64,000 nt of DNA. Origin: a virus. The first letter of the stretch is position 1; the number at the start of each line of letters is the position of its first letter. A program made the position numbers and the translations under genes. The stretch lies in IMG/VR virus record IMGVR_UViG_3300045988_170206, positions 64,001-128,000 of that record. One strand, written 5' to 3'. The notes under the pieces are model-generated. The model was not told where the DNA came from and did not search any database. It saw only the letters and a program-made list of their open reading frames with translations. Below are positions 4,749 to 61,344 of the stretch, piece after piece.

Positions 4749-5066
4749 CTAGCGTGAGCACTCCGTGGCGTGGGAGTAGATCTTTGCGAGGTCGTCGGGT
4801 GCGACGTTGGCGAGCGAGTGGGTGTCTTGGATCTGGGAGATGGCTACGGGGTCGAGGTCGCTCCATGATTTCTCAACCATGCACTGTGTGGTGGTGGCCG
4901 TGTACTCGCCGAGGCCAACGATGCCCTCGGGCACGTAGGAGCTGGTCCACGGGTGCCAGAGGGTCACGAGGTAGATGACGGCGGCTGCTAGGAGGATGGA
5001 GAGGATCGACTGGACGATGCCGCGGGTTTTGTGCGCCATGCGGAATGGCGTGAAGATGCTGAACAC
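4749..5066 (-). CDS. small membrane protein (105 aa, one N-terminal TM segment)
   Basis: Hydrophobic stretch IVQSILSILLAAAVIYLVTLW. GTG start at 5066, preceded by GAAAGG at ~9 nt. Confidence 0.6.
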   Translation of the reverse strand: MFSIFTPFRMAHKTRGIVQSILSILLAAAVIYLVTLWHPWTSSYVPEGIVGLGEYTATTTQCMVEKSWSDLDPVAISQIQDTHSLANVAPDDLAKIYSHATECSR

Positions 5067-31732: not shown

Positions 31733-32398
31733 ATGAACATGCCCCGTAGTGCCATTGCGCGACGTAACGCCCGCCAGGCGCACACCCATGAGGCGCGCAG
31801 CCGTCTCGAATGGGCGGCAGAAGTCCGCGCCATCCTCGAAGCCGCCGCCACTACCTTCGACGAGACCGTGGTCCAGCAACAGATCACGGTCCCAGCGAAC
31901 CGCACGCGCGGCCCAGTGCAAGCACGAGGCATCCTGGACATGTGCCAGGCCCTCAGCATCGTAGGCATGGCTACCAGCACTCCAACCGGCGATATCATCC
32001 TCACCCTCGCCGGCCACGCCGACCGAATGCAAGCAGCACTCCACCTCGCCCACAGCTACCTCGAGGCCGAACACCTACACCTCAGCCGAGCACACACCGA
32101 CCGCCCCGGCGTAACCCTCAGCCCCGCCAAGGCGCGCCAAAAAACCTACGGGATACTCCTGAGTGCAGCAGCCGAAGCCTCCACCATCATCCGCACAACC
32201 CGCCCCTTCAACGTGCCACTCGACCGGGAGGATGTTGAAGCGGCGCACGCAGTCCTCAGTCAGGGGTGGGTCGGATCAGCCTACCGAGAGCAGCCCCTCC
32301 TAGCTGCCGAAGAAGGGTGTCGCGAGTATGAGAGAATCTATCTCTCGGTTAGTCAAAAACCCCTCGTCAAGTCGTACAGAAAGAACAGCCCGCGATGA
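31733..32398 (+). CDS. hypothetical protein (221 aa)
   Basis: ORF 31562.. trimmed to the ATG at 31733 (MNMPRSAIARRN...), just after the previous stop. Confidence 0.6.
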   Translation: MNMPRSAIARRNARQAHTHEARSRLEWAAEVRAILEAAATTFDETVVQQQITVPANRTRGPVQARGILDMCQALSIVGMATSTPTGDIILTLAGHADRMQAALHLAHSYLEAEHLHLSRAHTDRPGVTLSPAKARQKTYGILLSAAAEASTIIRTTRPFNVPLDREDVEAAHAVLSQGWVGSAYREQPLLAAEEGCREYERIYLSVSQKPLVKSYRKNSPR

Positions 32399-33729
32399 AC
32401 CCACTCCGCACGCCCCGTCACCTCCATCGAGCGTGGCGGGGCTCCGTCGCCCTCACCTTCCTCCTTGCCCTCGTTCTCACGTTCTTCGCACACCCCGCTA
32501 AGGCGTTCACCGAAGACCAGGGACACAACCTCAAGGCCAAGCCCTCCACCTGGTGCCAGTGGTGCGCCGACAGTGACTTCGGGTACGACCCAAACGAAGA
32601 GCGCGGCATGATTACCAACGCCGGAGCAACCATGGGCGAGGCGGCGTGCGGTAACTTCTCCTTCGCATTCATGGAACTTCGCGCGGGAGTTAAAGCCCGC
32701 GGCTCCTACACCGTCAACGACATGCGCGCCGAAGCCATCAAACTGATGCAGGCAGGCAAAGATAGCCCATTCAGCGATGACGGTTGGCTCTACCAGCTCA
32801 ATCCCGAAGGCTTCGCCCAGGGAGTCTCCAACATGACCGGCGGACAGCTCACCGTCGAAGTCCAAGGCGACACCAGCGGAGCGGGACTGGGAGCCAACAA
32901 GTTCACCGAAGACGACGTGCGCCAAGCCATGAACGACGGCTACTTCGTCATCTTCATGGTCCAAACCGACACCGGCGGACGACACTGGATCGCCGGCGAC
33001 TACGTGGAAGGCAACACCGTCCACACCATAGACTCAGGACGACCCCTCACCACCCTCGACCGCTCCCAATACCCCGGCGGTATCGGCCCAATCCTCAAGT
33101 TCTCCCGCACCGACGGCAAGAAACTCCAAGACCTCCCCACCATCGACGACGCAGCCACCAGCGTCGGCGGCAACAACAGCGGTGACACCGCCACCGCAAC
33201 CGACACCGGCATCATCAGCGACCTCGACCTACCCGGTATGCCACCTCGCACCGTCGGACAAAACCACCAGCTCTCCGAAGCCGACAAGCTCGCCTTCGCG
33301 AAAGACACCCTCAAGTTCGCTAACTACACGAACCTGAACACTACACAGAAAGACAACGTTGACCAGATCGTCGCACAGCGACAGCTCGAACAAGACCGCA
33401 AAGTATCGGACTGGTTCAGCACCGGCGCAGCCGTCATCGGCATCATCCTGTTCCTGTACGCCCTCGTCATCGTCCTCGCATTCCTGTTCGACCTCGCCTT
33501 CCCACTGTTCTCTCTCCTCAAGATCGCGACAGCCGGCTCCCTGACTGTGCATCACGAGTCGCAAAGCCGTGCGGGCGTGAAAGAGCTGGGAGCTCCACCT
33601 CGAGGCCGTTGGGCGACATGGGGGAATGTGTTTGTGACTGCCGGGCTGGTCGCAGCGTTGGGTGGTTTGCTCATCAGCGGGACGCTGGTTAGGTGGGTTG
33701 CGTTGTTCGTGCAGATGCTCTACATGTGA
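32395..33729 (+). CDS. secreted putative papain-fold cysteine peptidase with the same C-terminal membrane anchor as 25846..27039
   Basis: Signal/TM segment VALTFLLALVLTFFAHPAKA. The candidate catalytic Cys is in GEAACGNFSFAF and the candidate His in GGRHWIAGDY. The LPGMP motif and C-terminal TM module are homologous to those of the lysozyme-like protein. Confidence 0.45.
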   Translation: MNPLRTPRHLHRAWRGSVALTFLLALVLTFFAHPAKAFTEDQGHNLKAKPSTWCQWCADSDFGYDPNEERGMITNAGATMGEAACGNFSFAFMELRAGVKARGSYTVNDMRAEAIKLMQAGKDSPFSDDGWLYQLNPEGFAQGVSNMTGGQLTVEVQGDTSGAGLGANKFTEDDVRQAMNDGYFVIFMVQTDTGGRHWIAGDYVEGNTVHTIDSGRPLTTLDRSQYPGGIGPILKFSRTDGKKLQDLPTIDDAATSVGGNNSGDTATATDTGIISDLDLPGMPPRTVGQNHQLSEADKLAFAKDTLKFANYTNLNTTQKDNVDQIVAQRQLEQDRKVSDWFSTGAAVIGIILFLYALVIVLAFLFDLAFPLFSLLKIATAGSLTVHHESQSRAGVKELGAPPRGRWATWGNVFVTAGLVAALGGLLISGTLVRWVALFVQMLYM

Positions 33730-33752
33730 CAGGTGAGCATAACCCCTGCATA

Positions 33753-33774
33753 CCTGTGATCTAGTTAACCAGTT
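33753..33774 (+). promoter_or_regulatory. 22-nt box CCTGTGATCTAGTTAACCAGTT (copy 1), followed by hairpin 33776-33802
   Basis: Near-identical to 40285-40306 and partly to 47723-47744. The core TCTAGTTAACC resembles the iterons at 4.2-4.65 kb. Confidence 0.6.
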
Positions 33775-33878
33775 TCCGGGTTGCGCACACAAAACAACCC
33801 GGCCTACACTAAACCCATCACAAACAACACATAATTTAAGAGCGTCCCCTGAACCGCCCTGGATCAGGGGAGCACCCC

Positions 33879-33967
33879 GGAAAGGTGCCCGAGTGGCTGA
33901 AGGGGCCTCCCTGCTAAGGAGGTAAACAGAGGAATCTGTTTCGCGGGTTCGAATCCCGCTCTTTCCG
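33879..33967 (+). tRNA. tRNA-Ser (anticodon GCT), type II
   Basis: Hand-folded. Acceptor GGAAAGG/TCTTTCC, anticodon arm CCTCC-CTGCTAA-GGAGG, long variable arm AAACAG-aggaat-CTGTTT, T arm GCGGG-TTCGAAT-CCCGC. No encoded CCA. Confidence 0.85.
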
Positions 33968-33969
33968 CA

Positions 33970-34046
33970 GGACGCGAGAAGCGCCTGAGACGAGTTACTT
34001 CATTTGGATCGAAACTACACTCGACTCAACTTTTTCTCTCGCGTCC
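33970..34046 (+). ncRNA. structured non-tRNA element 1 (Y-RNA candidate)
   Basis: Closing stem GGACGCGAG/CTCGCGTCC (9 bp). Inner stem GAGACGAGT/ACTCGACTC (1 mismatch). It shares a ~28-nt block (GAGTTACTTCATTTGGATCGAAACTACAC) with 36206.. It lies between tRNA-Ser and the Ro60-like gene. No ORF. Confidence 0.45.
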
Positions 34047-34092
34047 CCCACTTTTGCCCAAAACACAACCAGAACCCAGAAAGGAGAGCGTC

Positions 34093-35664
34093 ATGGCGCG
34101 CATGAATACCCGAGGCGCGAAGCCTCGCAACATGGCTACCACTCCCGTCAGTACGACGACGGGACAGGCCTTCACCGCAGAAGGTGGAATGGGGTGGCAG
34201 CGCACCCCCAAGGGCGAGCTGTTCCTCGCCGCCGTGACCTCCCTCAACGAGGACACCTTCTACGAGACCGCCGATGAGCGCGTCAACCGTATCCAGACCC
34301 TCACCACGGACCCCGAGATCATCAACAGCCCCGAGTGGGCGCTCGGCATGGTCCGCTGGCTCCGCCAGGAAGTCGGACTCCGCTCGATCCCCGGTGTTGT
34401 CGCCATGACCGTCGTTAAGGCACGCCTGGACGCTGGCCTGACCGGCACGAACCGTCAGATTATCGAAGCGGCCATCGGTCGCCTCGACGAGGCCTCCGAC
34501 ATGATCGCCGGGTGGATGAGCCTGTACGGGCGTAACATCCCATCCTGCGTGCGCCGTGGCGTTGCCGACGCTCTGCGCGCCCGACTGTCCGAGCGTTCCT
34601 ACCTCAAGTGGGTTGGCCGCATGAACTCGGGTAGCGTCACGCTCCGCGATGTCATCAACCTGACGCACCCCAAGCCGAAGGGTAAGACGCAGGAAGCGCT
34701 CATCAAACTCGTGCTCGACGAGGGCTACGGCAAGAAGGGCGACGACAAGCAACTACCCACCATCCGAGCACGCCGTCAGTTCCTCGCCATGGACCGTGAC
34801 GCGCAGATTAGCGCCCTCACCGGCCCGGACGCGAAGGATGTCATCCGTAAGGCTGCTCTCACCCACGAGGTGATCGCAGGCGCAATCGGGACGATCCCCG
34901 CCGACGTGTGGGAAACCCTCGTCCCCGAGATGGGTTACATGGCCCTGCGAATGAACCTCCGACGCATCGAAGCATCCGGCGCGTCTCGCGCGCTGATCGC
35001 CACGATCAACGAGCGCCTGAGCGACGTGGAAGAGGCTGCGAAGTCTCGCACCATGCCGGTCGCGTTCTACGCAGCGTACAAGAACGCGCCGCTGGCCTTC
35101 GCCGCCGCCCTACAGGACGCAGCGAACGCTTCGCTCGAGAACGTTCCCGCGCTCAAGGGGCGCACGCTGGTCCTCCTGGACCGCTCCGGCTCGATGAGCT
35201 ACCCCATGTCGGCGAAGTCGTCGCTGAGCTGCCAGGACACGGCCAACGTGTTCGCGTCGGCGCTCGCTATTCGAGGCGAGAGCGTCCGAGTGGTTGCGTT
35301 CGACGATCACATGGAGGACGTGAAGGTCGCCAGCACGGACCTGCTCCGTGTCGTGGACCAGATGCCCACCGCTCGAGGCTGCACCTACACGCCGGATGCT
35401 GTCGCTTACGCCCACAAGAAGGGCGAGAAGTACGACCGCATCATCATCCTCACGGATGAGCAGTACAGGGGCGGCAGCGTCGATAACGCGCTCGACACGT
35501 ATGCTCCCAGGGTTCCGGTGTTCACCTGGAACTTGGCGGGCTATGCGACAGCGCAGATGGAGGCCCGAGAGGGCCGCTGGACCTTCGGCGGACTCTCCGA
35601 CAAGGGCTTCCAGATGATCCCGCTCCTCGAGCGCGGGATCGGCCAGTCCTGGCCCTGGGAGTAA
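34093..35664 (+). CDS. rsr: Ro60/TROVE-domain plus vWA protein (Rsr-like ribonucleoprotein)
   Basis: 523 aa. The C-terminal vWA has MIDAS LVLLDRSGSMS and IIILTDEQ. The N-terminal ~350 aa are a helical-repeat region, and the length and layout are typical of bacterial Ro orthologs. GAAAGGAGAG SD lies before the ATG at 34093. Confidence 0.75.
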   Translation: MARMNTRGAKPRNMATTPVSTTTGQAFTAEGGMGWQRTPKGELFLAAVTSLNEDTFYETADERVNRIQTLTTDPEIINSPEWALGMVRWLRQEVGLRSIPGVVAMTVVKARLDAGLTGTNRQIIEAAIGRLDEASDMIAGWMSLYGRNIPSCVRRGVADALRARLSERSYLKWVGRMNSGSVTLRDVINLTHPKPKGKTQEALIKLVLDEGYGKKGDDKQLPTIRARRQFLAMDRDAQISALTGPDAKDVIRKAALTHEVIAGAIGTIPADVWETLVPEMGYMALRMNLRRIEASGASRALIATINERLSDVEEAAKSRTMPVAFYAAYKNAPLAFAAALQDAANASLENVPALKGRTLVLLDRSGSMSYPMSAKSSLSCQDTANVFASALAIRGESVRVVAFDDHMEDVKVASTDLLRVVDQMPTARGCTYTPDAVAYAHKKGEKYDRIIILTDEQYRGGSVDNALDTYAPRVPVFTWNLAGYATAQMEAREGRWTFGGLSDKGFQMIPLLERGIGQSWPWE

Positions 35665-35674
35665 CCACCCACTA

Positions 35675-35713
35675 GGGGCCTCGCCCAACACTCCCACCAC
35701 AGGGCGAGGCCCC
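35675..35713 (+). terminator. hairpin GGGGCCTCGCCC ... GGGCGAGGCCCC after the Ro60-like gene
   Basis: 12-bp perfect stem with a 15-nt loop and no U tract. It may be a processing or attenuation structure, since tRNAs follow immediately. Confidence 0.45.
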
Positions 35714-35719
35714 ACCAAC

Positions 35720-35793
35720 GCCCCTATAGCTCAGTTGGTTAGAGCTGCGGACTTTTAATCCGAGGGTCGCAGGTTCGAGTCCTGCTGGGGGCA
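35720..35793 (+). tRNA. tRNA-Lys (anticodon TTT)
   Basis: Hand-folded. Acceptor GCCCCTA/TGGGGGC, D arm GCTC-AGTTGGTTA-GAGC, anticodon loop CTTTTAA, T arm GCAGG-TTCGAGT-CCTGC. Confidence 0.9.
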
Positions 35794-35813
35794 CTCAGTG
35801 AAAAACTGAACAT

Positions 35814-35901
35814 GGCGGGGTGCCGGAGTGGACTAACGGAGCTGTCTTGAAAACAGTCGCACCGACAGGTGCCCAGGGTTCGAATCCCTGTCCCGCCGCC
35901 A
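35814..35901 (+). tRNA. tRNA-Ser (anticodon TGA), type II, CCA encoded
   Basis: Acceptor GGCGGGG/TCCCGCC, anticodon arm GCTGT-CTTGAAA-ACAGT, variable arm GCACC-gaca-GGTGC, T arm CAGGG-TTCGAAT-CCCTG, 3' GCCA. Confidence 0.85.
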
Positions 35902-35912
35902 ACTGAATACAT

Positions 35913-35984
35913 GGTCCTATGGGGTAGCGGTCAGCCCGCCAGATTTTCACTCTGGAGACCCGAGTTCGACTCTCGGTAGGACTA
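35913..35984 (+). tRNA. tRNA-Glu (anticodon TTC)
   Basis: Acceptor GGTCCTA/TAGGACT (G1.U72 wobble), anticodon arm CCAGA-TTTTCAC-TCTGG, T arm CCGAG-TTCGACT-CTCGG. Confidence 0.8.
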
Positions 35985-35990
35985 CTCCGA

Positions 35991-36063
35991 TCCGGTGTAG
36001 CTCAACGGACAGAGCGGGGGACTTCTAATCCCAAGGTTGCAGGTTCGAGCCCTGTCACCGGAA
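35991..36063 (+). tRNA. tRNA-Arg (anticodon TCT)
   Basis: Acceptor TCCGGTG/CACCGGA (U1-A72), D arm GCTC-AACGGACA-GAGC, anticodon loop CTTCTAA (G27/A43 mismatch), T arm GCAGG-TTCGAGC-CCTGT. Confidence 0.8.
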
Positions 36064-36088
36064 CTCCAACAACTAAATAACCCACTGA

Positions 36089-36179
36089 GGGTCGTTGGCT
36101 GAGCGGCGAAAGCATCCGGCTGTAAACCGGACACAGGGTAGCCAGTCCCACACCGCAGGTTCGAGTCCTGCACGGCCCA
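36089..36179 (+). tRNA. tRNA-Tyr (anticodon GTA), type II with an unusually long variable region
   Basis: Acceptor GGGTCGT/ACGGCCC, anticodon arm TCCGG-CTGTAAA-CCGGA, ~23-nt variable region, T arm GCAGG-TTCGAGT-CCTGC. Confidence 0.75.
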
Positions 36180-36181
36180 CT

Positions 36182-36290
36182 GGTGGAGTGAAGACGCGAA
36201 TGTGTGAGTTACTTCTTTGCATAGAAAACACATCCTGGGCGTAGACCCAGGGCCCCATTTGCTCGCGCAGCCTTTCAGCTTCACTCCGCC
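36182..36290 (+). ncRNA. structured non-tRNA element 2 (Y-RNA candidate), filling the long Tyr-Gln spacer
   Basis: 12-bp outer stem GGTGGAGTGAAG/CTTCACTCCGCC (one G.U). Inner GACGCGA...CTCGCG (same sequence as the element 1 stem). ATGTGT/ACACAT stem around GAGTTACTTCTTTGCATAGAAA, plus hairpin CCTGGG-cgtaga-CCCAGG. There is no T-loop and no ORF. Confidence 0.5.
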
Positions 36291-36296
36291 CCTCCA

Positions 36297-36367
36297 TCTC
36301 GGATGGTGTAACGGCAGCACACCGGATTTTGGTTCCGGGCATCTAGGTTCGAATCCTAGTCCGAGAG
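36297..36367 (+). tRNA. tRNA-Gln (anticodon TTG)
   Basis: Acceptor TCTCGGA/TCCGAGA, D arm GTGT-AACGGCA-GCAC, anticodon arm CCGGA-TTTTGGT-TCCGG, T arm CTAGG-TTCGAAT-CCTAG. Confidence 0.8.
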
Positions 36368-36371
36368 CGAA

Positions 36372-36414
36372 CTGCGGGCGTGTCCCTGTCGAGAAGATAG
36401 TGACGCGCCCGCAG
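36372..36414 (+). terminator. hairpin CTGCGGGCG ... CGCCCGCAG after the tRNA array
   Basis: 9-bp GC-rich stem with a 25-nt loop, followed by GTTTAC. Weak as an intrinsic terminator. Confidence 0.4.
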
Positions 36415-36442
36415 GTTTACCCAGATCGAAAGGAAAACCACC

Positions 36443-37123
36443 GTGACTATTGGTGAGCGTAAGGCCGCAGCCAACAAGCGCCGACGCGCATTCCACATCT
36501 ACACGATGAGCGCCTTGACCGCCCTCTGCGTGGGCGTATTCGCAGCTCTCGCGTTCGTGGGCCTGATCGGCCCCTCCCAGTGGGCTATCAGCCGACAGGA
36601 AACCACCCTCGGGAAGGTCTTCACCGGCTGGCTGACGACCGTCAACATGCCCGCCGCAGGGTGGGGGAGTGAGACCGTGTTCGTCTCCTCCTACACGGGC
36701 GATACCGCCCACCTGACCACAGGGGAGATGGCCCCCGTCTCGGACCTGACCCTCACGGCACCGCTCTCGGCGACAGCTGAGCACGCCGTCTTCATGAATA
36801 CCCTCACCGCAGCGCTCCTCGCTGCACTCCTGCTCCTTGTGGCCGTTGCTATGTGGCCGTCCTACGTCACCGACCCTGCGCAGCTCGAAACAAACCTGAC
36901 GGGAGCGTTCGAGTGGCCCACTCCCGCGACGAGCGAGAAGCAGCGCCAGAAGGCCCGCGAGCGTCGCCAGCAGCGACTAGAAGAGTTCGCCGCAGCCCGC
37001 GAAGAAGCCGATGACCTCGACGCTGAACACCAGACCGACACAACCCAGAACGACGCGCAGGAACACTCCGCAGGCACCGAGTTTCTAGCCGCCCGCCTCA
37101 TGGAAGGAACCCGCCATGAGTGA
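36443..37123 (+). CDS. membrane protein (226 aa) with acidic/basic C-terminal tail
   Basis: GTG start after GAAAGGA. The TM segments are ALTALCVGVFAALAFVGLIG and LTAALLAALLLLVAVAMW. Confidence 0.6.
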   Translation: MTIGERKAAANKRRRAFHIYTMSALTALCVGVFAALAFVGLIGPSQWAISRQETTLGKVFTGWLTTVNMPAAGWGSETVFVSSYTGDTAHLTTGEMAPVSDLTLTAPLSATAEHAVFMNTLTAALLAALLLLVAVAMWPSYVTDPAQLETNLTGAFEWPTPATSEKQRQKARERRQQRLEEFAAAREEADDLDAEHQTDTTQNDAQEHSAGTEFLAARLMEGTRHE

Positions 37124-37520
37124 ACCTCTCATCGTCGCGTTCGCCGCGGCCCTCGTCGCGTCCGCAGCCTTCATGGTTGCCACTGTCGTCCTCATGGGCG
37201 ACACGGCCTTCAAGCGCAGCGCAGACACCCTCAGCGCCACGCTCACAGTCGCACTCATCAGCGCAGTGTTCGCCTCCCCGATCTTCACCCCGGTCACCTA
37301 CCAGGTGCCCGACGTGATCCACGCCTGGGTGAACTTCGGCCTCGCAGCCCTCGCACTGCTCCTGATGATGGTCACGGTGTGGAACATGTTCCGCCGATAC
37401 CCCGACGTGCCCCTCACGATCCACTGGAGCGCATGGGCCATCAACGGCATCATCGGCTACGCCCTATGCGGCTTCATCCCCACTATCCACTTCATCCATG
37501 CGATCAGCCCGTGGGCCTGA
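37116..37520 (+). CDS. polytopic membrane protein (134 aa)
   Basis: 8-nt overlap with the previous gene. It has four hydrophobic segments. Confidence 0.6.
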   Translation: MSEPLIVAFAAALVASAAFMVATVVLMGDTAFKRSADTLSATLTVALISAVFASPIFTPVTYQVPDVIHAWVNFGLAALALLLMMVTVWNMFRRYPDVPLTIHWSAWAINGIIGYALCGFIPTIHFIHAISPWA

Positions 37521-37533
37521 AAGGAACAACAAC

Positions 37534-38238
37534 ATGAACAAGCGCAAGTGGCTAACAGTTGAACGTGTGTGTGCGATTGTAGGAATCGTCTTCCTCTTGG
37601 CCCTCCACATCTGGCTGTACGGTGTCGTGCATTCGTCAGACGGAGGTAAGTCTGTCAGCAATATGGACACCAGTGCCGTCGCTGACGGAACCCTTAGCGA
37701 CCTCAACGAGCTCGCCGTCAATGACAACCCCACACCGCCCAAGAAGTACAACCGGGTGGAGCAGTTCGGCCCCGCTTGGAAGGACGTGGACCATAACGGC
37801 TGCGACACGAGGAACGACATCCTCGCCCGCGACCTCAAAACCATCAGCGACCGACGTAACGCCTGCGTCATTACCGCCGGCCAACTCGCAGACCCCTACT
37901 CGGGTAAGTGGATCGACTTCCGCAAGAAGGAAGCCTCAAAGGTCCAGATCGACCATGTTGTCGCCCTCGAGAACGCCTGGCAGTCCGGCGCGTACAACCT
38001 CACCCAGGAAGATCGTGAAGCCCTCGCCAACGACCCCGACAACCTCCTAGCCGTCAACGGCCACGACAACATGGCCAAGGGCTCCAAGAGCGCAGACCAA
38101 TGGATGCCACCCAACACCGCATACGCCTGCACCTACGCCTCTAAACAGGTCCAGATCAAGAACCGCTACGCTCTCACAGTGACCACACCGGAAAAGCAGG
38201 CCCTCGCCGACGCACTGGCAACCTGCACCACCAACTAG
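37534..38238 (+). CDS. membrane-anchored/secreted DUF1524 (GmrSD C-terminal, HNH-like) nuclease
   Basis: FGPAWKDVDHNGCDTRNDILARDL...DPYSGKWIDF...VQIDHVVALENAWQSGA...LANDPDNLLAVNGHDNMAKG...C matches the actinobacterial DUF1524 pattern. It has an N-terminal TM segment. ORF trimmed to the ATG at 37534. Confidence 0.7.
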   Translation: MNKRKWLTVERVCAIVGIVFLLALHIWLYGVVHSSDGGKSVSNMDTSAVADGTLSDLNELAVNDNPTPPKKYNRVEQFGPAWKDVDHNGCDTRNDILARDLKTISDRRNACVITAGQLADPYSGKWIDFRKKEASKVQIDHVVALENAWQSGAYNLTQEDREALANDPDNLLAVNGHDNMAKGSKSADQWMPPNTAYACTYASKQVQIKNRYALTVTTPEKQALADALATCTTN

Positions 38239-57293: not shown

Positions 57294-58517
57294 TCAGTCG
57301 GCGAGAAGGTGGTAGATGAGTGAGGGGCACGTGTAGGGCGTTGCTCCGAATCGCCCCTCGAGGTAGTTCTTGGTGATGTTGCTCCCTGACTGTAGGCCGG
57401 TGAAGTCGGAGAGCTGGTAGAGCGTGGTGGCCTGGGCGCTGTTCTTCTCTGTGAACCAGATGCGCTCACGGTTATGGATGGGGCCGCGGCCAATGTCCAT
57501 GAGTGCGATGTCGTTGGTCGTGAAGATGAGCTGGGCTCCCGTCTGGTTGGCGGTGAAGGCGGTGAACCAGTTGATGATGATGCGACCAAGCTCCGTGTGG
57601 AGGGAAGCCGTCAGATCATCCACAACGAGCACCTGTCCGCTAGTGAGCGCGTCAACGGCTGCGGCGGCGAGCGCCAGCCACATGATGCTCCCCGAAGATG
57701 CTGAGAGTGCCGTGTGGGGGACTGTGTGCTCCCCGTAATGGAACTCGAGGAGGTGGGGGAGAGCCTTCGCGAGCGTGACCTCCGCAGCCTCTCTGTCTGC
57801 GGGCGTATGGTGTGTGGAGCGCGCTGGCCGCTGGGGGGTGCGCAGCTCAATGCTCGTAGTGCCAAGGTCTGCAACCTGAGCGAGCGCGCTCAGGGCCGTC
57901 GTGTCGAGGCGGCGCGACAGAAGGTGCCTGGCGATATGCAGGTATGCGTCCTCCATCGAGGGAACGCCGACACGGAAGACCTTGACCCCAGTCGTGAGCG
58001 CGTCGCGGACGGGCTTCACCTGCGGGTCGCCCATGAGGGACGCTCGAGTGAGAACCAGTTCGTTCACGTTGACATGGGGGAGGCCTTTCAGGCCGGTCAC
58101 AGCCCCGTGTATGTCGCGCGAGTAGATGGTGTTCCACCGCTTGCGGGCAACGCGCAGGTGCTCCCCTGCAACGCCGTCTGCGTTCCGAGACAGGCTGTAC
58201 TCGTAGCGCATGTTATCGAGGATGAACTCGATGCTGTAGCAGGTGGGCTTCGATGCGTCGTAGGGCCTGTAGGGGAGCGCGTTCGCCCCCAGGGGCAGGA
58301 GGGTAGTGATCGCACTCTTCATGTGGTGGAAGGCTTCTAGGATGTTCGTTTTCCCAGAGCCGTTGGGACCGTAGATGCCTGCGAGGCGGTGCAGGTAGTC
58401 GCCCCACTGAGTGCCTCCTGGCGGATTGAGGGTGCGTATTGCCGATAGGGCGAGGTTGAGGGTGGCCTCATCCCTGATCGACTTGTGATTGCTAATTGTG
58501 ATGTTGAGCAGTTGCAT
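57294..58517 (-). CDS. AAA_15/AAA_21-type (ABC-like) ATPase, monocistronic
   Basis: Walker A is IYGPNGSGKTNILEAF. Walker B and D-loop are LVVDDLTASLH. LIFTTNDIALMD is also present. ORF 57294..58652 trimmed to the ATG at 58517 (MQLLNITISNHKSIRD, a typical N-terminus for this family). Confidence 0.75.
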   Translation of the reverse strand: MQLLNITISNHKSIRDEATLNLALSAIRTLNPPGGTQWGDYLHRLAGIYGPNGSGKTNILEAFHHMKSAITTLLPLGANALPYRPYDASKPTCYSIEFILDNMRYEYSLSRNADGVAGEHLRVARKRWNTIYSRDIHGAVTGLKGLPHVNVNELVLTRASLMGDPQVKPVRDALTTGVKVFRVGVPSMEDAYLHIARHLLSRRLDTTALSALAQVADLGTTSIELRTPQRPARSTHHTPADREAAEVTLAKALPHLLEFHYGEHTVPHTALSASSGSIMWLALAAAAVDALTSGQVLVVDDLTASLHTELGRIIINWFTAFTANQTGAQLIFTTNDIALMDIGRGPIHNRERIWFTEKNSAQATTLYQLSDFTGLQSGSNITKNYLEGRFGATPYTCPSLIYHLLAD

Positions 58518-58607
58518 ACCCACAAAGTAACACACATAGGCGCATTTATGATATTTTTTATCACGAACGCGCCGAACAGTGCTCCAAACCGAGAAAGCGA
58601 GACCGCC

Positions 58608-59207
58608 ATGAAGGAAGTCCAATACATCCCACTTGGGGATATTTGGCCACAAAACCTATCCAAAGAAACACAGCAGGCGATTCGACACACCGGGTATCTT
58701 GCAGACCTAAAGCCGGACCACCCAGCCTTCACACAGGATACGAATAGCTACACCATCTTCGCGCAGACGCGCCGCCGCACATGTCCAACCCCCGAGCTCC
58801 AGTACCACTGGGACAAAACCCGGCGCTTCCTGGAAGGAGTCCTCCGCATGAAGAGCGTGGACATCTTCCCCGTGGCCTACTGGGCATGGCAGACCTCCCT
58901 GTGGATAAAGGACGCGCAAGATGACTTCACGCGCCAAATGCACGAGCGCAGCGGCGTGCTCGTCGCCCCCGACGACGGGACCGTCGTCGGCTACACGATG
59001 TGTATGCCAGTCAACTCCACCTCCGGCACACAGTGGAGTGAATCCGTGCTCAGGCCCGACACATGCGAAGCCTACGGTCTCGACGCTGACAAGCCCATCC
59101 CGGTGGGGAACGGCTACTGGTTCGTACACCCCGCCATCATGTACGGCCAGCAGATCGCGCACGTCCGCTACGTCAACGTCGGTATGGGGGATGCCATCAA
59201 CTCGTAA
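58608..59207 (+). CDS. hypothetical protein (199 aa)
   Basis: ORF 58485.. trimmed to the ATG at 58608. Divergent from the ATPase gene. No motif recognised. Confidence 0.55.
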   Translation: MKEVQYIPLGDIWPQNLSKETQQAIRHTGYLADLKPDHPAFTQDTNSYTIFAQTRRRTCPTPELQYHWDKTRRFLEGVLRMKSVDIFPVAYWAWQTSLWIKDAQDDFTRQMHERSGVLVAPDDGTVVGYTMCMPVNSTSGTQWSESVLRPDTCEAYGLDADKPIPVGNGYWFVHPAIMYGQQIAHVRYVNVGMGDAINS

Positions 59208-60090: not shown

Positions 60091-61344
60091 ATGAGGACAT
60101 TCTTCATCGTCCGAGGAGCGCCCGGTATCGGCAAGAGCACCTTCCTCAGCCTCTACCAGGCCCGCGGCCAAGTCGTCTCCCTCGACGGGATCCGCGACGT
60201 GTTCGCCATGCCCATCCCCGACTGGGACGGCGTTCCCGGAAGGTCCATCTGTGGGGACACTGAGGGGACGATCTCCCGCGTCCTCGAGTCCGCCCTGCGG
60301 TCACGCTTCGAGCAGGGTGGCGACGTGTTCTTCGACGCGACCAACCCGGAGCTGCAACAGTTCAAGCACCTCGCCGACATGTCCCGAGCCTACGGCTACC
60401 AGGTCGCTGTCATCGACATGCAAGGGAACGCCACCGACGACATGATCCTCGCGCAGAACGCGAAGCGCGCGGGCAGCGTCACCTACGTCCCCGAAGAAGA
60501 CGTTCTCAGGATCTCAACGCGAGTCCGTGAGGGCACCCGCGAGTGCCGCCGGTACGCGGGACGTGGCATGTGGGTGTCCGCCCAGTGGGAAGAACGTGAC
60601 TGTGGGCTGCACCTGGTCAACCTCGATGCCATGCGCGACTTCGTGCGCTCCACCATCGACGGGCGCTACGTCAAGACGATCACCCCGAAAGCGGGGGAGC
60701 GTGTCGTCATTGTCGGGAGCGCCTACGGTGGTGCTCAGCCACTCAGCGCAACGCTCATGGAAGCCTGGGACGCGACCAAGGATGCGCGCGCCGTGACGTG
60801 GGTGTTCCTCGGAGATGCGCTCGCATCCAGCCCGCACGTCACCCAGGCGTGGAAGATCCTCAAGTACTTCGAGACCCAAGCCAAGCAACACGGCCACACC
60901 GTCATCTTCCTTGAAGGGATCGACGAGACTATCCTGCGTGAAATCCTCACCCGCGCCGCCAGCTCCCACGCATTCCCTGACGCTCGAGAAGTCATCGACG
61001 CAATCACCCGAACGGGAACCCAGAAACGCGACCTCCTGCGTCACCTGAACAACCTCACCTGCGCGCTCACCATCCACACGGAAAGCGGAACCTGCTACGT
61101 CACCACCGGCGGCACCGCAAACCAGGACCGCACTCTCACCGCCCTCGAGTGCACCAACGGCGCAAACGACCGCACCAGCACCTACCGTAGGAAGACCAAC
61201 TACGAGGACTACCCTGAACCCCTCAGTGAGGCAGCGGCCCGCGCCGACATTACGATCATCCACGGCCACAGGAACACACCTCACGACATGCCCCGAGTCG
61301 TCGCCGTCGAAACCGGGAAGGCCCCCGGTTACGTGATCCTCTGA
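60091..61344 (+). CDS. P-loop (AAA_33/polynucleotide-kinase-like) kinase fused to a calcineurin-like phosphoesterase-like domain
   Basis: The N-terminus is FFIVRGAPGIGKSTFL...VFFDATN. The C-terminal blocks VVIVGSAYGG / FLGDALASSP / FLEGIDE / IIHGHRN are collinear with the metallophosphatase motifs GDxHG / GDxxDRG / GNHE / GH, but several ligands are substituted. Confidence 0.55.
   Translation: MRTFFIVRGAPGIGKSTFLSLYQARGQVVSLDGIRDVFAMPIPDWDGVPGRSICGDTEGTISRVLESALRSRFEQGGDVFFDATNPELQQFKHLADMSRAYGYQVAVIDMQGNATDDMILAQNAKRAGSVTYVPEEDVLRISTRVREGTRECRRYAGRGMWVSAQWEERDCGLHLVNLDAMRDFVRSTIDGRYVKTITPKAGERVVIVGSAYGGAQPLSATLMEAWDATKDARAVTWVFLGDALASSPHVTQAWKILKYFETQAKQHGHTVIFLEGIDETILREILTRAASSHAFPDAREVIDAITRTGTQKRDLLRHLNNLTCALTIHTESGTCYVTTGGTANQDRTLTALECTNGANDRTSTYRRKTNYEDYPEPLSEAAARADITIIHGHRNTPHDMPRVVAVETGKAPGYVIL

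What the first reader, a model, noticed from the sequence alone, without database searches (positions are those of the whole stretch)
34093..35664. Ro60/TROVE-vWA (Rsr-like) protein carried by a mobile element and inserted into its tRNA array
A 523-aa ORF has a vWA MIDAS motif (DRSGS in LVLLDRSGSMS) and a long helical N-terminal region, which is the layout of Ro60/Rsr. It sits between tRNA-Ser(GCT) and six further tRNAs.

Established knowledge: Rsr/Y-RNA particles adapt exoribonucleases and are linked to RNA repair operons in some bacteria. Carriage on phages or plasmids is known but functionally unexplained. Elsewhere in this window there is a kinase/phosphoesterase-like fusion (60091..61344). 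Together these hint at an element-encoded RNA quality-control or repair toolkit.
Basis: partly seen in the sequence, partly recalled or inferred. Interest (0 to 1): 0.65.

Follow-up and report, generated by a model that had tools for sequence, protein, structure and literature searches.

The report
Phage Ro60 protein with Y-like RNAs
A large virus-like element of mouth-dwelling actinobacteria carries a genuine Ro60/Rsr ring protein and, packed among its tRNA genes, two small partner-like RNAs that standard searches miss; this kind of module is already known from other phages, so it is a solid but ordinary new member.

Summary
The ORF at 34093..35664 (523 aa) is a real Ro60/Rsr-type protein. 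It matches Pfam vWA_Ro60 and TROVE and PHROG 850 over its full length. An AlphaFold model (pLDDT 82) has only Ro60/Rsr structures as its 13 best PDB matches (TM up to 0.70). The MIDAS motif is complete. It lies between tRNA-Ser(GCU) and six more tRNAs, and this order is conserved in about 20 related contigs.

The same rsr-in-a-tRNA-array layout occurs in cultured actinophages whose genes are already annotated "Ro-like RNA binding protein" (Atuin, GiJojo).

I also found two structured RNAs flanking rsr on its strand: A at 33970..34046 and B at 36182..36290. Both belong to a covarying two-helix family (93% of cells paired against 57% in shuffles) found beside rsr in 52 of 56 loci. All 83 matches lie on the rsr strand, usually abutting tRNAs. 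Long members enclose weak Rfam YrlA matches. The window's copies lack the tRNA-like domain and are invisible to Rfam.

Most likely this is a phage Ro60/Y-RNA particle cut out of the tRNA transcript and acting on host RNA decay. That mechanism is inferred, not shown. I rate it a new member of a known kind, of moderate interest. The "repair toolkit" idea is only weakly supported.

The parts
33879..33968 (+). tRNA-Ser(GCU). Its 3' end abuts Y-like RNA A.
   Evidence: ARAGORN. Rfam tRNA 53.6 bits. 98% conserved in relatives. The same tRNA precedes the RNA and rsr in the group whose Rsr is 63% identical.
33970..34046 (+). Y-like RNA A, a short form. Layout: P1 GGACGCGAGA/UCUCGCGUCC; 5' loop AGCGCC; P2; conserved GUUACUUC; 3' loop ending in UUUUC; then P1'.
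   Evidence: MFE -26.9 kcal/mol, z -3.3. CM R2 76.1 bits, E 5e-16, the best hit in the whole window. Family covariation is shown. 95% conserved, against 80-87% for spacers.
34093..35664 (+). rsr: a Ro60/Rsr ortholog of 523 aa. TROVE HEAT-repeat ring at about residues 39-350; vWA/MIDAS domain at about 357-513.
35674..35714 (+). Conserved hairpin between rsr and tRNA-Lys (GGGGCCUCGCCC, 15-nt loop, GGGCGAGGCCCC). Role unknown: a processing site or an attenuator.
   Evidence: Read from the sequence. A G:C to A:U compensatory change occurs in relatives. It is not a family member (4.3 bits).
35720..36180 (+). Five tRNAs: Lys(UUU), Ser(UGA), Glu(UUC), Arg(UCU), Tyr(GUA).
   Evidence: Conserved order in relatives.
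36182..36290 (+). Y-like RNA B, filling the slot between tRNA-Tyr and tRNA-Gln. Layout: P1 GGUGGAGUGAAG/CUUCACUCCGCC; CGCGAAUG in the 5' loop; a 9-bp P2; GAGUUACUUC; two small apical hairpins; no T or D arm.
   Evidence: MFE -45.8 kcal/mol, z -4.3. R1 19.1 bits, E 1.5e-4 in 4.5 kb. R2 23.2 bits, E 0.0025 in the 64-kb window, the second-best hit. Compensatory changes in P1. The 5' half is 96% conserved.
36297..36368 (+). tRNA-Gln(UUG), the last tRNA of the array. It starts 6 nt after RNA B.
60091..61344 (+). Context only. Protein with an N-terminal PNK/Pnkp-like P-loop kinase domain and an unidentified C-terminal half. A link to rsr is not shown.
   Evidence: AAA_33 2e-10 and Zeta_toxin. PHROG 8238 and 505. 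TIGR04075 E 0.0016. Only the kinase aligns to a kinase-Metallophos-ligase protein. The AF2 model failed.

Best explanation
The locus encodes a phage-type Ro60/Rsr ribonucleoprotein module.

Shown:
- The 523-aa protein is a TROVE ring plus a vWA/MIDAS domain of the Ro60/Rsr family.
- It is flanked on its own strand by two conserved, structured small RNAs, A (33970..34046) and B (36182..36290).
- Both RNAs belong to a covarying stem / internal loop / stem family that accompanies rsr in many actinophage-like elements.
- Longer members of that family enclose the tRNA-like domain typical of YrlA Y RNAs.

Inferred:
- The RNAs are transcribed with the tRNAs and released by the tRNA-processing enzymes. 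RNA A starts 1-2 nt after tRNA-Ser; RNA B sits 1-3 nt after tRNA-Tyr and 6-8 nt before tRNA-Gln.
- Rsr binds their closing stem and internal loop, where (A/C)GA(A/U)G sits in the place of the CGAA motif.
- The particle docks on a host 3'-5' exoribonuclease, most likely PNPase, as in D. radiodurans, Salmonella and Thermus phage phiLo. During infection this would redirect or damp decay of structured RNA, for example the phage's own pre-tRNAs and tRNAs or their fragments.

Rough likelihoods:
- Protein is a Ro60/Rsr homolog: about 0.95.
- RNAs A and B are its Y-RNA-type ligands: about 0.7.
- The effector is PNPase or another exoribonuclease: about 0.4.
For: Protein:
- Pfam vWA_Ro60 and TROVE. PHROG 850 over the full length.
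- Sequence match to the phiLo Ro60 chains, 6e-26.
- AF2 model pLDDT 81.9, pTM 0.76. The 13 best Foldseek PDB matches are all Ro60/Rsr: 2nvo TMq 0.70 over 518 columns, 9kop 0.69, 1yvp 0.67.
- MIDAS residues D363, S365, S367, T431 and D455 are invariant in 13 homologs down to 48% identity.
- Equivalents of the phiLo RNA-contact residues K141/K142, R169 and R178, and the THP(K/R)P motif, are kept (alignment; residues from PMC12135203).

RNA family:
- The RNAalifold consensus has two helices; 14 of 16 pairs show compensatory changes.
- On 41 distinct sequences, 93.4% of cells pair, against 57% in shuffles and 35-52% when partners are slid. The covariation score is 0.94 against 0.22.
- An unfiltered CM search of the whole window on both strands finds only A (76 bits) and B (23 bits); the next hit scores 13.6 bits.
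- In 56 rsr loci there are 83 hits at E<=0.01, all on the rsr strand, present in 52 loci.
- In an rsr-blind motif scan of IMG/VR, 8 stretches carry true family members, and 6 of them have rsr on the same strand (immediately downstream in three, 0.6-3.2 kb downstream in three).
- Long members enclose sub-threshold Rfam YrlA matches.
- 42 of 47 copies abut a tRNA or another copy within 12 nt.
- A and B are 93-95% conserved, against 86% for rsr third codon positions and 80-87% for spacers.

Precedent:
- YrlA RNAs lie within 4 kb of rsr, on the same strand, in 254 bacteria and 22 phages (PMC4201824).
- phiLo Ro60 binds two upstream Y-like RNAs and host PNPase (PMC12135203).
Against: - No binding or expression data exist for this element.
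- Neither RNA is detected by Rfam YrlA or Y_RNA, even at E<=5-10.
- Both lack the T and D arms that define YrlA.
- RNA A has AGAAG instead of CGAA(N)G.
- RNA B is a weak CM hit (E 0.0025 in the window).
- The CM alignment used for pair counts was fitted to the model, so it leans towards the structure.
- One element (L082/L093) carries three family members in a 36-tRNA array with no rsr in the 9.6 kb available. The RNAs may therefore have a role independent of Rsr.
- The protein scores far below NCBI's Rsr equivalog cut-off (31.7 bits against 900).
- PNPase involvement is extrapolated from other systems, and those systems disagree on direction (activation in Deinococcus, attenuation in phiLo).
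Confidence: 0.6

Rival explanations
1. The protein is a true Ro60/Rsr, but elements A and B are not its ligands. Instead they are cis-acting parts of the polycistronic tRNA transcript: spacers or guide structures for RNase P, Z or E processing, an rsr leader, or decoy 'pseudo-tRNA slots'. Rsr would work on other substrates, such as misfolded phage pre-tRNAs threaded through its central hole.
For: - 42 of 47 copies sit head-to-tail with tRNAs.
- L082/L093 has three copies inside a 36-tRNA array and no rsr in the fetched 9.6 kb.
- RNA A lies directly upstream of the rsr ribosome-binding site, so it could be a leader.
- No Rfam Y-RNA model recognises A or B.
- Ro60 is known to bind misfolded RNAs without a Y RNA (established knowledge; PDB 2i91 and 9nep appear among the matches).
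Against: - Sequence motifs (GAWGYG, GUUACUUC, UUCUCU) are kept while both helices covary across Rsr lineages only 26-55% identical. A mere spacer would not need this.
- Tandem copies separated from rsr by tRNAs (L030, Atuin) argue against a leader.
- Long members enclose YrlA-type tRNA-like domains.
- All 83 hits share the rsr strand and cluster next to it.
Confidence: 0.15
2. The module is part of a counter-defence tRNA-repair toolkit. Host anticodon nucleases cut tRNAs. The phage supplies replacement tRNAs (Lys-UUU, Tyr, Arg-UCU, Gln, Glu, Ser). Rsr with its Y-like RNAs collects the damaged tRNAs or halves, and the PNK-like kinase at 60091..61344, together with a ligase, heals them.
For: - rsr/yrlA are co-operonic with rtcBA in Salmonella, and that operon is induced by tRNA fragments (PMC7790460, listed).
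- TROVE proteins in jumbo phages have been discussed alongside RNA ligases, PNK and phosphoesterases (PMC7824862).
- The kinase domain of the 417-aa protein is 32% identical to the kinase of a kinase-Metallophos-RNA-ligase protein.
- It also matches PHROG 'RNA ligase' and 'polynucleotide kinase' families through that domain.
Against: - The kinase gene is 24 kb away from rsr.
- Its C-terminal half matches no phosphoesterase profile, and the AF2 model is unusable (pLDDT 40).
- No RNA ligase (RtcB, Rnl) was found among the window ORFs scanned.
- The distant rsr loci examined show tRNAs and ncRNAs next to rsr, not repair enzymes.
Confidence: 0.2
3. The ORF is only a generic vWA/MIDAS protein with an unrelated helical N-terminus, and the tRNA neighbourhood is coincidental.
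For: - The Pfam TROVE match covers only residues 270-329.
- The NCBIfam Rsr equivalog score is far below its cut-off.
Against: - The PHROG 850 match spans the full length.
- There is a two-segment sequence match to a solved phage Ro60.
- Full-length structural superposition on six different Ro60/Rsr entries gives TM 0.6-0.77. Generic vWA proteins appear only from rank 14, with TMq about 0.2.
- The rsr-tRNA-ncRNA synteny recurs in independent lineages.
Confidence: 0.02

Closest known systems
Thermus phage phiLo Ro60 with Yrl1/Yrl2 (PDB 9KOP, 9L5Y; Hu et al. 2025, PMC12135203)
   Same: - A phage-encoded TROVE + vWA ring protein. It is the best sequence match (6e-26) and the best structural match (TMt 0.77).
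- Y-like RNAs are encoded just upstream on the same strand, with a stem / internal loop / stem layout.
- Several RNA-contact basic residues and the THP(K/R)P motif are shared.
   Different: - Only about 23% identical.
- The phiLo locus has no tRNA array.
- The covariance models built here do not hit the phiLo RNAs.
- The phiLo RNAs carry a strict CGAA motif, whereas RNA A here has AGAAG.
- Binding to host PNPase was shown for phiLo and is only inferred here.
'Ro-like RNA binding protein' genes of cultured actinophages (Arthrobacter phage Atuin, Streptomyces phages GiJojo/BRock/Satis, Gordonia phages Rabbitrun/VanLee)
   Same: - Closest annotated proteins: 32-37% identity over the full length.
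- In Atuin and GiJojo the gene also sits inside a tRNA array.
- The same RNA family occurs there in 3-6 tandem copies filling gaps between tRNAs.
   Different: - Those phages carry long copies with T-arm-like inserts that Rfam YrlA detects weakly (30-47 bits). The window has only two short or medium copies without such a domain.
- The RNAs are not annotated in those records. Two annotated 'tRNA-Arg' genes there appear to be parts of such RNAs.
Bacterial Rsr with YrlA/YrlB Y RNAs (Salmonella, M. smegmatis, mycobacteriophages; Chen et al. 2014, PMC4201824; Rfam RF02553)
   Same: - The RNA is within 4 kb of rsr and on the same strand.
- The closing stem, asymmetric internal loop and second stem match.
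- A YUAY (UUAC) follows the second stem.
- There is a 5' loop motif related to GNCGAAN0-1G.
- More than one Y RNA per locus, including short forms (YrlB-like).
   Different: - No T arm, D arm or acceptor-like stem in the window's RNAs.
- No Rfam YrlA hit.
- The protein scores 31.7 bits against the 900-bit Rsr equivalog cut-off.
Deinococcus radiodurans Rsr / Yrn1 / PNPase (RYPER) complex
   Same: Same protein fold (2nvo, TMq 0.70 over 518 columns). The proposed mode of action is a Y RNA tethering the ring to an exoribonuclease.
   Different: 17% sequence identity. The element encodes no PNPase that I could find, so a host enzyme would be needed. Nothing here tests complex formation.

Membership tests
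Ro60/Rsr (TROVE + vWA) proteins | N-terminal HEAT-repeat TROVE domain forming a closed ring | tested here: met
   Pfam TROVE 6.3e-7, a partial match to residues 270-329. PHROG 850 covers residues 21-513. The AF2 model is all-helical over residues 39-350. It superposes over its full length on 2nvo, 1yvp, 9nen, 9kop and 9l5y with TM 0.6-0.77.
Ro60/Rsr (TROVE + vWA) proteins | C-terminal vWA domain with a MIDAS motif (DxSxS ... T ... D) | tested here: met
   Pfam vWA_Ro60 5.7e-11, above its cut-off. D363, S365, S367, T431 and D455 are invariant in 13 homologs.
Ro60/Rsr (TROVE + vWA) proteins | Conserved basic surface and central-cavity residues that contact RNA | tested here: inconclusive
   In the alignment, phiLo K141/K142 align with R154/R155, R169 with R185, and R178 with K194, and the THP(K/R)P motif is kept. 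R137, R163 and R173 are not matched. The residue list comes from PMC12135203. No residue-level structural check was done.
Ro60/Rsr (TROVE + vWA) proteins | Scores as an NCBIfam 'RNA-binding protein Rsr' equivalog (NF041674) | tested here: not met
   31.7 bits against a curated cut-off of 900. It is a divergent homolog, not a close ortholog of the bacterial Rsr set.
Ro60/Rsr (TROVE + vWA) proteins | Binds Y RNA and/or misfolded RNA | not testable with these tools
   Needs EMSA or RIP.
YrlA Y RNA (Rfam RF02553) | Reaches the Rfam gathering score (69 bits) | tested here: not met
   No YrlA match in the window, even at E<=5-10. Relatives in cultured phages reach only 30-47 bits.
YrlA Y RNA (Rfam RF02553) | Encoded within 4 kb of rsr on the same strand | tested here: met
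   RNA A ends 46 nt before the rsr start. RNA B starts 518 nt after the rsr stop. Both are on the + strand. All 83 family hits lie on the rsr strand.
YrlA Y RNA (Rfam RF02553) | 5'/3' closing stem, internal loop and second stem, supported by covariation | tested here: met
   14 of 16 pairs have double-sided changes, and 93.4% of cells pair against 57% in shuffles. Long members enclose YrlA hits.
YrlA Y RNA (Rfam RF02553) | GNCGAAN0-1G motif near the 5' end | tested here: inconclusive
   RNA A has GCGAGAAG (AGAAG, so the C is replaced and paired as A-U). RNA B has CGCGAAUG (CGAAUG is present, the leading G is absent). The family consensus is NGA(A/U)G(C/U)G, of which CGAAG is one variant.
YrlA Y RNA (Rfam RF02553) | Conserved YUAY after the second stem | tested here: met
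   GUUACUUC follows P2 directly in both A and B and is nearly invariant in the family.
YrlA Y RNA (Rfam RF02553) | tRNA-like domain (T arm, acceptor-like stem, D arm) | tested here: not met
   No tRNA or YrlA model match inside A or B. The apical part of A is about 28 nt. B has a 6-bp hairpin at the T-arm position, but its loop (CGUAGA) is not a T loop.
Metazoan Y RNA (Rfam RF00019) | Match to the Y_RNA covariance model | tested here: not met
   No hit at E<=5-10 in the window.
Pnkp-type RNA repair enzymes (for the 60091..61344 protein) | Kinase + metallophosphoesterase (+ ligase) domains | tested here: inconclusive
   The kinase domain is supported: AAA_33 2e-10, and 32% identity to the kinase of a Metallophos-AAA_33-RNA_lig_T4_1 protein. 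The C-terminal half has no profile or PDB match, and the AF2 model failed. No ligase domain was found.

The most novel reading that the evidence does not exclude
In large actinophages the tRNA array doubles as a production line for Ro60 ligands. Y-like RNAs occupy tRNA slots, are cut out by RNase P and RNase Z, and form a graded series: from copies with a permuted tRNA-like domain down to minimal stem-loop-stem forms such as those in this window.

This would mean two things:
1. YrlA-type Y RNAs arose from junctions of tandem tRNAs in such arrays.
2. The phage Rsr/Y-RNA particle is a dedicated manager of the phage tRNA pool. It could perform quality control of array-derived pre-tRNAs, or act as a decoy or shield against host tRNA-targeting nucleases. 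That differs from a general PNPase adaptor.

In the related jumbo elements the same arrays also hold GOLLD RNA.
Probability: 0.15. Interest if true: 0.7.

Novelty: new member of a known kind. Interest (0 to 1): 0.38.

Why it matters
Ro60/Y-RNA particles are conserved from bacteria to humans, yet what they do in phages is barely understood. Only one phage system (Thermus phage phiLo, 2025) has been studied biochemically.

This locus and its relatives add three things:
- Abundant, uncultured large phage-like elements of human oral actinobacteria carry the module.
- Their Y-like RNAs are missed by the curated Rfam models, so surveys undercount phage Y RNAs.
- The RNAs are embedded in tRNA arrays as if they were tRNAs. 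This suggests how they are made, and perhaps how YrlA-type tRNA mimics arose.

The same RNA family is present in cultured, genetically tractable phages (Atuin, GiJojo, Rabbitrun), so the function can be tested directly. As a single finding, however, it extends a known system and does not reveal a new one.

Tried and rejected
1. Rfam (gathering score and E-value thresholds) on the window and on the rsr region found no Y_RNA or YrlA match. I therefore looked for conserved structure de novo.
2. The hairpin right after rsr (35674..35714) was considered as a Y-RNA stem. It shows a compensatory change but scores only 4.3 bits with the family model, so I left it as an unexplained processing or attenuator element.
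3. Megablast of the locus against the phage and plasmid collections returned only tRNA-sized matches. There is no close cultured relative and no PLSDB plasmid.
4. The genome-contig scan found one distant Myxococcales MAG and no host prophage. The host therefore remains inferred from WhiB and the actinophage relatives.
5. The covariance models were run on the phiLo, Satis, VanLee and CcrColossus loci. phiLo and VanLee gave nothing; Satis and CcrColossus gave only 14-15 bits. The model does not span all phage Y RNAs.
6. The rsr-blind motif scan of IMG/VR returned 25 stretches. 17 of them did not pass the covariance model at E<1e-4 and are treated as chance pattern matches (16 had no hit at E<=0.1; one, L100, scored 21 bits at E 0.029).
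7. The PNK-like protein was examined with homolog search, profile-versus-PDB search, AF2 and pairwise comparison. Only the kinase domain could be assigned. An apparent metallophosphoesterase-like motif order (YGDAH .. FLGD .. EGIDE .. IIHGH) was seen by eye only and is not claimed.
8. PHROG and Pfam scans of 30 further window ORFs gave few assignments and no capsid, portal or terminase. 'Phage' rests on the IMG/VR source of close relatives (the window's own contig was not recovered), on a Caudoviricetes-labelled homolog, and on a phage-tail-lysozyme domain.
9. A resemblance I recalled between these RNAs and human Y1 RNA was not pursued. The Rfam Y_RNA model gives no hit, and my memory of the sequence is not evidence.
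Full report
**1. The observation**

The + strand ORF 34054..35664 (TTG start) has an internal ATG at 34093. ARAGORN and Rfam agree on seven + strand tRNAs:
- Ser(GCU) at 33879..33968, upstream of the ORF.
- Lys(UUU), Ser(UGA), Glu(UUC), Arg(UCU), Tyr(GUA) and Gln(UUG) at 35720..36368, downstream.

**2. The protein**

Sequence evidence:
- Pfam gives vWA_Ro60 (5.7e-11, residues 357-470) and TROVE (6.3e-7, residues 270-329 only), both above their curated cut-offs.
- PHROG 850 'RNA-binding protein' matches residues 21-513 at 9e-44.
- The only PDB sequence matches are the two entries for Ro60 of Thermus phage phiLo (6e-26, two segments covering both domains).

Structural evidence:
- An AlphaFold2 model built on 13 homologs (48-92% identical) has mean pLDDT 81.9 and pTM 0.76. 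It is all-helical over residues 39-350 and alpha/beta over 357-513.
- Its 13 best Foldseek matches in the PDB are all Ro60/Rsr: phiLo Ro60, D. radiodurans Rsr (TMq 0.70 over 518 columns), and Xenopus and human Ro60. Generic vWA domains follow only from rank 14, at TMq about 0.2.
- The MIDAS residues D363, S365, S367, T431 and D455 are invariant among the homologs.
- Several residues that contact RNA in phiLo Ro60 have basic equivalents here: K141/K142 align with R154/R155, R169 with R185, and R178 with K194. The THP(K/R)P motif is also kept (alignment; residues from PMC12135203).

The protein is nevertheless divergent. It scores 31.7 bits against the 900-bit NCBIfam Rsr equivalog cut-off, and it is at most 37% identical to any protein in the phage collection searched (INPHARED GenBank phage records, which also include a few uncultured phages).

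**3. The element**

- The window is 61% G+C. It has no close relative among the GenBank phage records (INPHARED) or PLSDB plasmids searched.
- Proteins 87-97% identical occur on many metagenomic contigs of about 135-147 kb and in IMG/VR viral contigs.
- More distant homologs lie on elements of about 120 kb (63% identical) and on 180-420 kb elements (55% identical). One of the latter comes from an assembly labelled human oral metagenome.
- One homolog is named 'MAG TPA: ribonucleoprotein [Caudoviricetes sp.]'.
- The window encodes the following:
  - a WhiB regulator, typical of Actinobacteria (established knowledge);
  - a RecT-like annealing protein;
  - an HNH/ParB protein;
  - a replication-initiator-like protein;
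  - a phage-tail-lysozyme domain;
  - a GmrSD_C nuclease.
- Most ORFs are unassigned, and I found no capsid, portal or terminase in this 64 kb.

'Large phage or phage-like element of an actinobacterium' is the best description. The viral nature rests mainly on IMG/VR and on the relatives.

**4. The neighbourhood recurs and is already annotated elsewhere**

- The order tRNA-Ser(GCU), rsr, tRNA array is kept in 20 related loci.
- The same kind of arrangement exists in cultured actinophages whose gene is already annotated 'Ro-like RNA binding protein'. These are Arthrobacter phage Atuin (rsr in the middle of more than 25 tRNAs), Streptomyces phage GiJojo, and Gordonia phage Rabbitrun, where the tRNAs begin about 1.3 kb downstream.
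- In the 55% group, rsr sits inside arrays of 23-38 tRNAs.

rsr is thus a regular component of an ncRNA-rich module in several lineages, not something 'inserted' into this one array.

**5. Partner RNAs**

Bacterial and some phage rsr genes are accompanied, within 4 kb and on the same strand, by YrlA-type Y RNAs (PMC4201824). Rfam has that family (RF02553), but it finds nothing in the window, even at E<=5-10.

Two of the noncoding gaps examined fold unusually well into stems that join their two ends:
- 33970..34046 (RNA A): -26.9 kcal/mol, z -3.3.
- 36182..36290 (RNA B): -45.8 kcal/mol, z -4.3.

Upstream of the 63% and 55% rsr genes the same architecture appears. The closing stems there have completely different, compensating sequences, while three short motifs are shared: GA(A/U)G(C/U)G after the first stem, G(U/A)UACUU after the second, and UUCUCU before the 3' strand.

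Family statistics:
- A 15-sequence seed gave an RNAalifold consensus of two helices, with compensatory changes at 14 of 16 pairs.
- A covariance model built from the seed (R1) and a second round (R2) recovered many non-seed members.
- On 41 distinct sequences, 93.4% of cells form pairs, against 57% in shuffles and 35-52% with slid partners. The covariation score is 0.94 against 0.22. The caveat is that this alignment was fitted to the model.

Specificity:
- An unfiltered search of the entire window on both strands returns only A (76.1 bits, E 5e-16) and B (23.2 bits, E 0.0025). The next hit scores 13.6 bits.
- Over 56 rsr loci there are 83 hits at E<=0.01, every one on the rsr strand, in 52 loci.
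- To remove the selection bias, I scanned IMG/VR with a bare sequence motif. Of 25 stretches, 8 pass the covariance model at E<1e-4 (one further stretch, L100, is borderline at 21 bits, E 0.029). Six of those 8 carry rsr on the same strand, immediately downstream in three and 0.6-3.2 kb downstream in the other three. The other two are the same element (L082/L093). They hold three copies in a 36-tRNA array, with no rsr in the 9.6 kb I could see.

**6. Relation to YrlA**

- In Atuin, GiJojo, L084, L088 and L089 the long family members (115-150 nt) enclose the sub-threshold Rfam YrlA matches. Those matches correspond to the T-arm/D-arm domain, at 30-47 bits against a gathering score of 69.
- The two helices of my model are therefore the closing stems of YrlA-type RNAs.
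- The UUAC that follows helix 2 corresponds to the 'YUAY' that Chen et al. describe after that stem.
- The family's NGA(A/U)G occupies the place of the GNCGAAN0-1G / CGAA motif. RNA B has CGCGAAUG. RNA A has AGAAG, with the first base paired as A-U where other members have C-G.
- The window's two RNAs lack a tRNA-like domain. A has a 28-nt apical region. B has two small hairpins, one at the T-arm position but without a T loop.
- They are best described as short, YrlB-like or phiLo-Yrl-like members of a divergent actinophage branch of the Y-RNA family.
- They fail the defining YrlA tests (Rfam score, T/D arms). I do not file them as YrlA, only as Y-like.

**7. Packing with tRNAs and selection**

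- Of 47 family copies in 14 loci, 42 lie within 12 nt of a tRNA or of another copy on the same strand.
- In the window, A starts 1-2 nt after tRNA-Ser(GCU). B lies 1-3 nt after tRNA-Tyr and 6-8 nt before tRNA-Gln.
- No + strand sigma-70-like promoter or intrinsic terminator is predicted in 32300..37200.
- Across 17 relatives, A is 95% and B 93% identical to the window (the 5' half of B is 96%). Five of the seven tRNAs are 97-99% identical (Lys 91%, Tyr 74%), rsr third codon positions 86%, and spacers 80-87%.
- The RNAs are thus under purifying selection, and they are positioned so that ordinary tRNA 5' and 3' processing would release them. That last step is inference.

**8. Mechanism**

Shown: a Ro60/Rsr-fold protein and a conserved, covarying RNA family that co-localises with it.

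Inferred from established systems:
- Rsr binds the closing stem and loop of these RNAs.
- The RNP engages a host 3'-5' exoribonuclease. In D. radiodurans and Salmonella the Y RNA tethers Rsr to PNPase for degradation of structured RNA (PMC4201824 introduction). In phiLo the phage Ro60/Yrl complex binds host PNPase and slows it (PMC12135203).

Which direction applies here, and whether the substrates are phage pre-tRNAs, damaged tRNAs or host RNAs, cannot be decided from sequence. I put about 0.95 on the protein assignment, about 0.7 on A and B being its ligands, and about 0.4 on an exoribonuclease effector.

**9. The 'repair toolkit' suggestion**

The 417-aa protein at 60091..61344:
- It has an N-terminal P-loop kinase: AAA_33 2e-10, plus PHROG 'RNA ligase' and 'polynucleotide kinase' families matched through that domain.
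- That domain is 32% identical to the kinase of a Metallophos-AAA_33-RNA_lig_T4_1 protein.
- Its C-terminal 270 residues match no profile or solved structure, and the AF2 model is unusable.
- Homologs exist only within this element family.
- No RNA ligase was detected among the ORFs scanned.

The idea is in line with published thinking on TROVE proteins in jumbo phages (PMC7824862) and with the Salmonella rsr-yrlBA-rtcBA operon (PMC7790460). Here, though, it remains a weak lead.

**10. Verdict**

The module belongs to a known kind: phage Ro60 with Y-like RNAs. Similar genes are already annotated in cultured actinophages, and one phage system has been characterised biochemically. Novelty is therefore 'new member of a known kind'.

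This analysis adds two previously unannotated Y-like RNAs in the window. It also adds a covariance-supported RNA family that Rfam misses, and the observation that these RNAs occupy tRNA-array slots across several lineages. Interest is moderate (0.38).

Noticed in passing
L030 7639-8025; L059 5633-6019; L095 10021-10416 (-): GOLLD RNA (Rfam RF02032; 219.6, 214.2 and 146.4 bits against a gathering score of 150) lies inside the same tRNA / rsr / Y-like-RNA arrays of the 180-420 kb oral elements whose Rsr is 55% identical. There is none in the window.
   Followed up: partly
L025 3769-3843 (GiJojo 'tRNA-Arg(cct)'); L078 3704-3775 (VanLee 'tRNA-Arg(tct)'): Two tRNA genes annotated next to the Ro-like gene in cultured phages get no Rfam tRNA match. 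Each overlaps a weak Rfam YrlA match, and the GiJojo one also lies inside a Y-like (R1/R2) match. They are probably the tRNA-like domains of Y RNAs mis-called as tRNAs.
   Followed up: partly
window 35674-35714: A 12-bp hairpin with a conserved 15-nt loop sits between the rsr stop and tRNA-Lys. It shows a G:C to A:U compensatory change in relatives, has no U tract, and is not a member of the Y-like family.
   Followed up: partly
L001 11584-11775; also L004, L005, L006, L008 (about 7584-7775): In five relatives a 63-aa ORF overlaps the rsr stop (ATGA). It is followed by a different hairpin (GGCGAAGCC..GGCUUCGCU), and together they replace the hairpin seen in the window. This makes a 185-nt indel between rsr and tRNA-Lys.
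   Followed up: no
L003 6103-6105: One relative, 95% identical in DNA to the window, has TAG instead of TGG at rsr codon 35. This is a premature stop or a sequencing error; all other loci have TGG.
   Followed up: partly
L017 7702-7961; L015 after 7970: The array content varies. L017 lacks tRNA-Ser(UGA), tRNA-Tyr and Y-like RNA B. In L015 no tRNA-Tyr or tRNA-Gln is called and RNA B is absent (replaced by a shorter stretch). tRNA-Tyr is also the least conserved tRNA (74%).
   Followed up: no
L082 (IMGVR_UViG_3300037483_000443) 4986-5064, 7375-7488, 7950-8037 (-): Three Y-like RNA copies sit exactly in slots of a 36-tRNA array, with no rsr in the 9.6 kb fetched from a 135-kb contig. Either rsr lies elsewhere on the contig, or the RNAs can exist without it.
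   Followed up: partly
window 60091-61344: Protein with a PNK/Pnkp-like kinase domain and an unidentified C-terminal half. By eye the motifs follow the order YGDAH .. FLGD .. EGIDE .. IIHGH, reminiscent of a degenerate metallophosphoesterase. It is confined to this element family.
   Followed up: partly
window 37498-38238 and 57294-58652 (-): A GmrSD_C (DUF1524-type) nuclease-domain protein lies 1.1 kb downstream of the tRNA array. Further away is an AAA_21 (AbiEii/OLD-like) ATPase. Both are possible defence or counter-defence genes.
   Followed up: no
L079 2781-2865 (Caulobacter phage CcrColossus); L077 3519-3600 (Streptomyces phage Satis): Weak family matches (14-15 bits) upstream of the Ro-like genes carry GGUUACUUC. 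CcrColossus has GUUACUUCUUUUGCAUAG, almost the same string as RNA B of the window, so the motif reaches beyond actinophages.
   Followed up: partly
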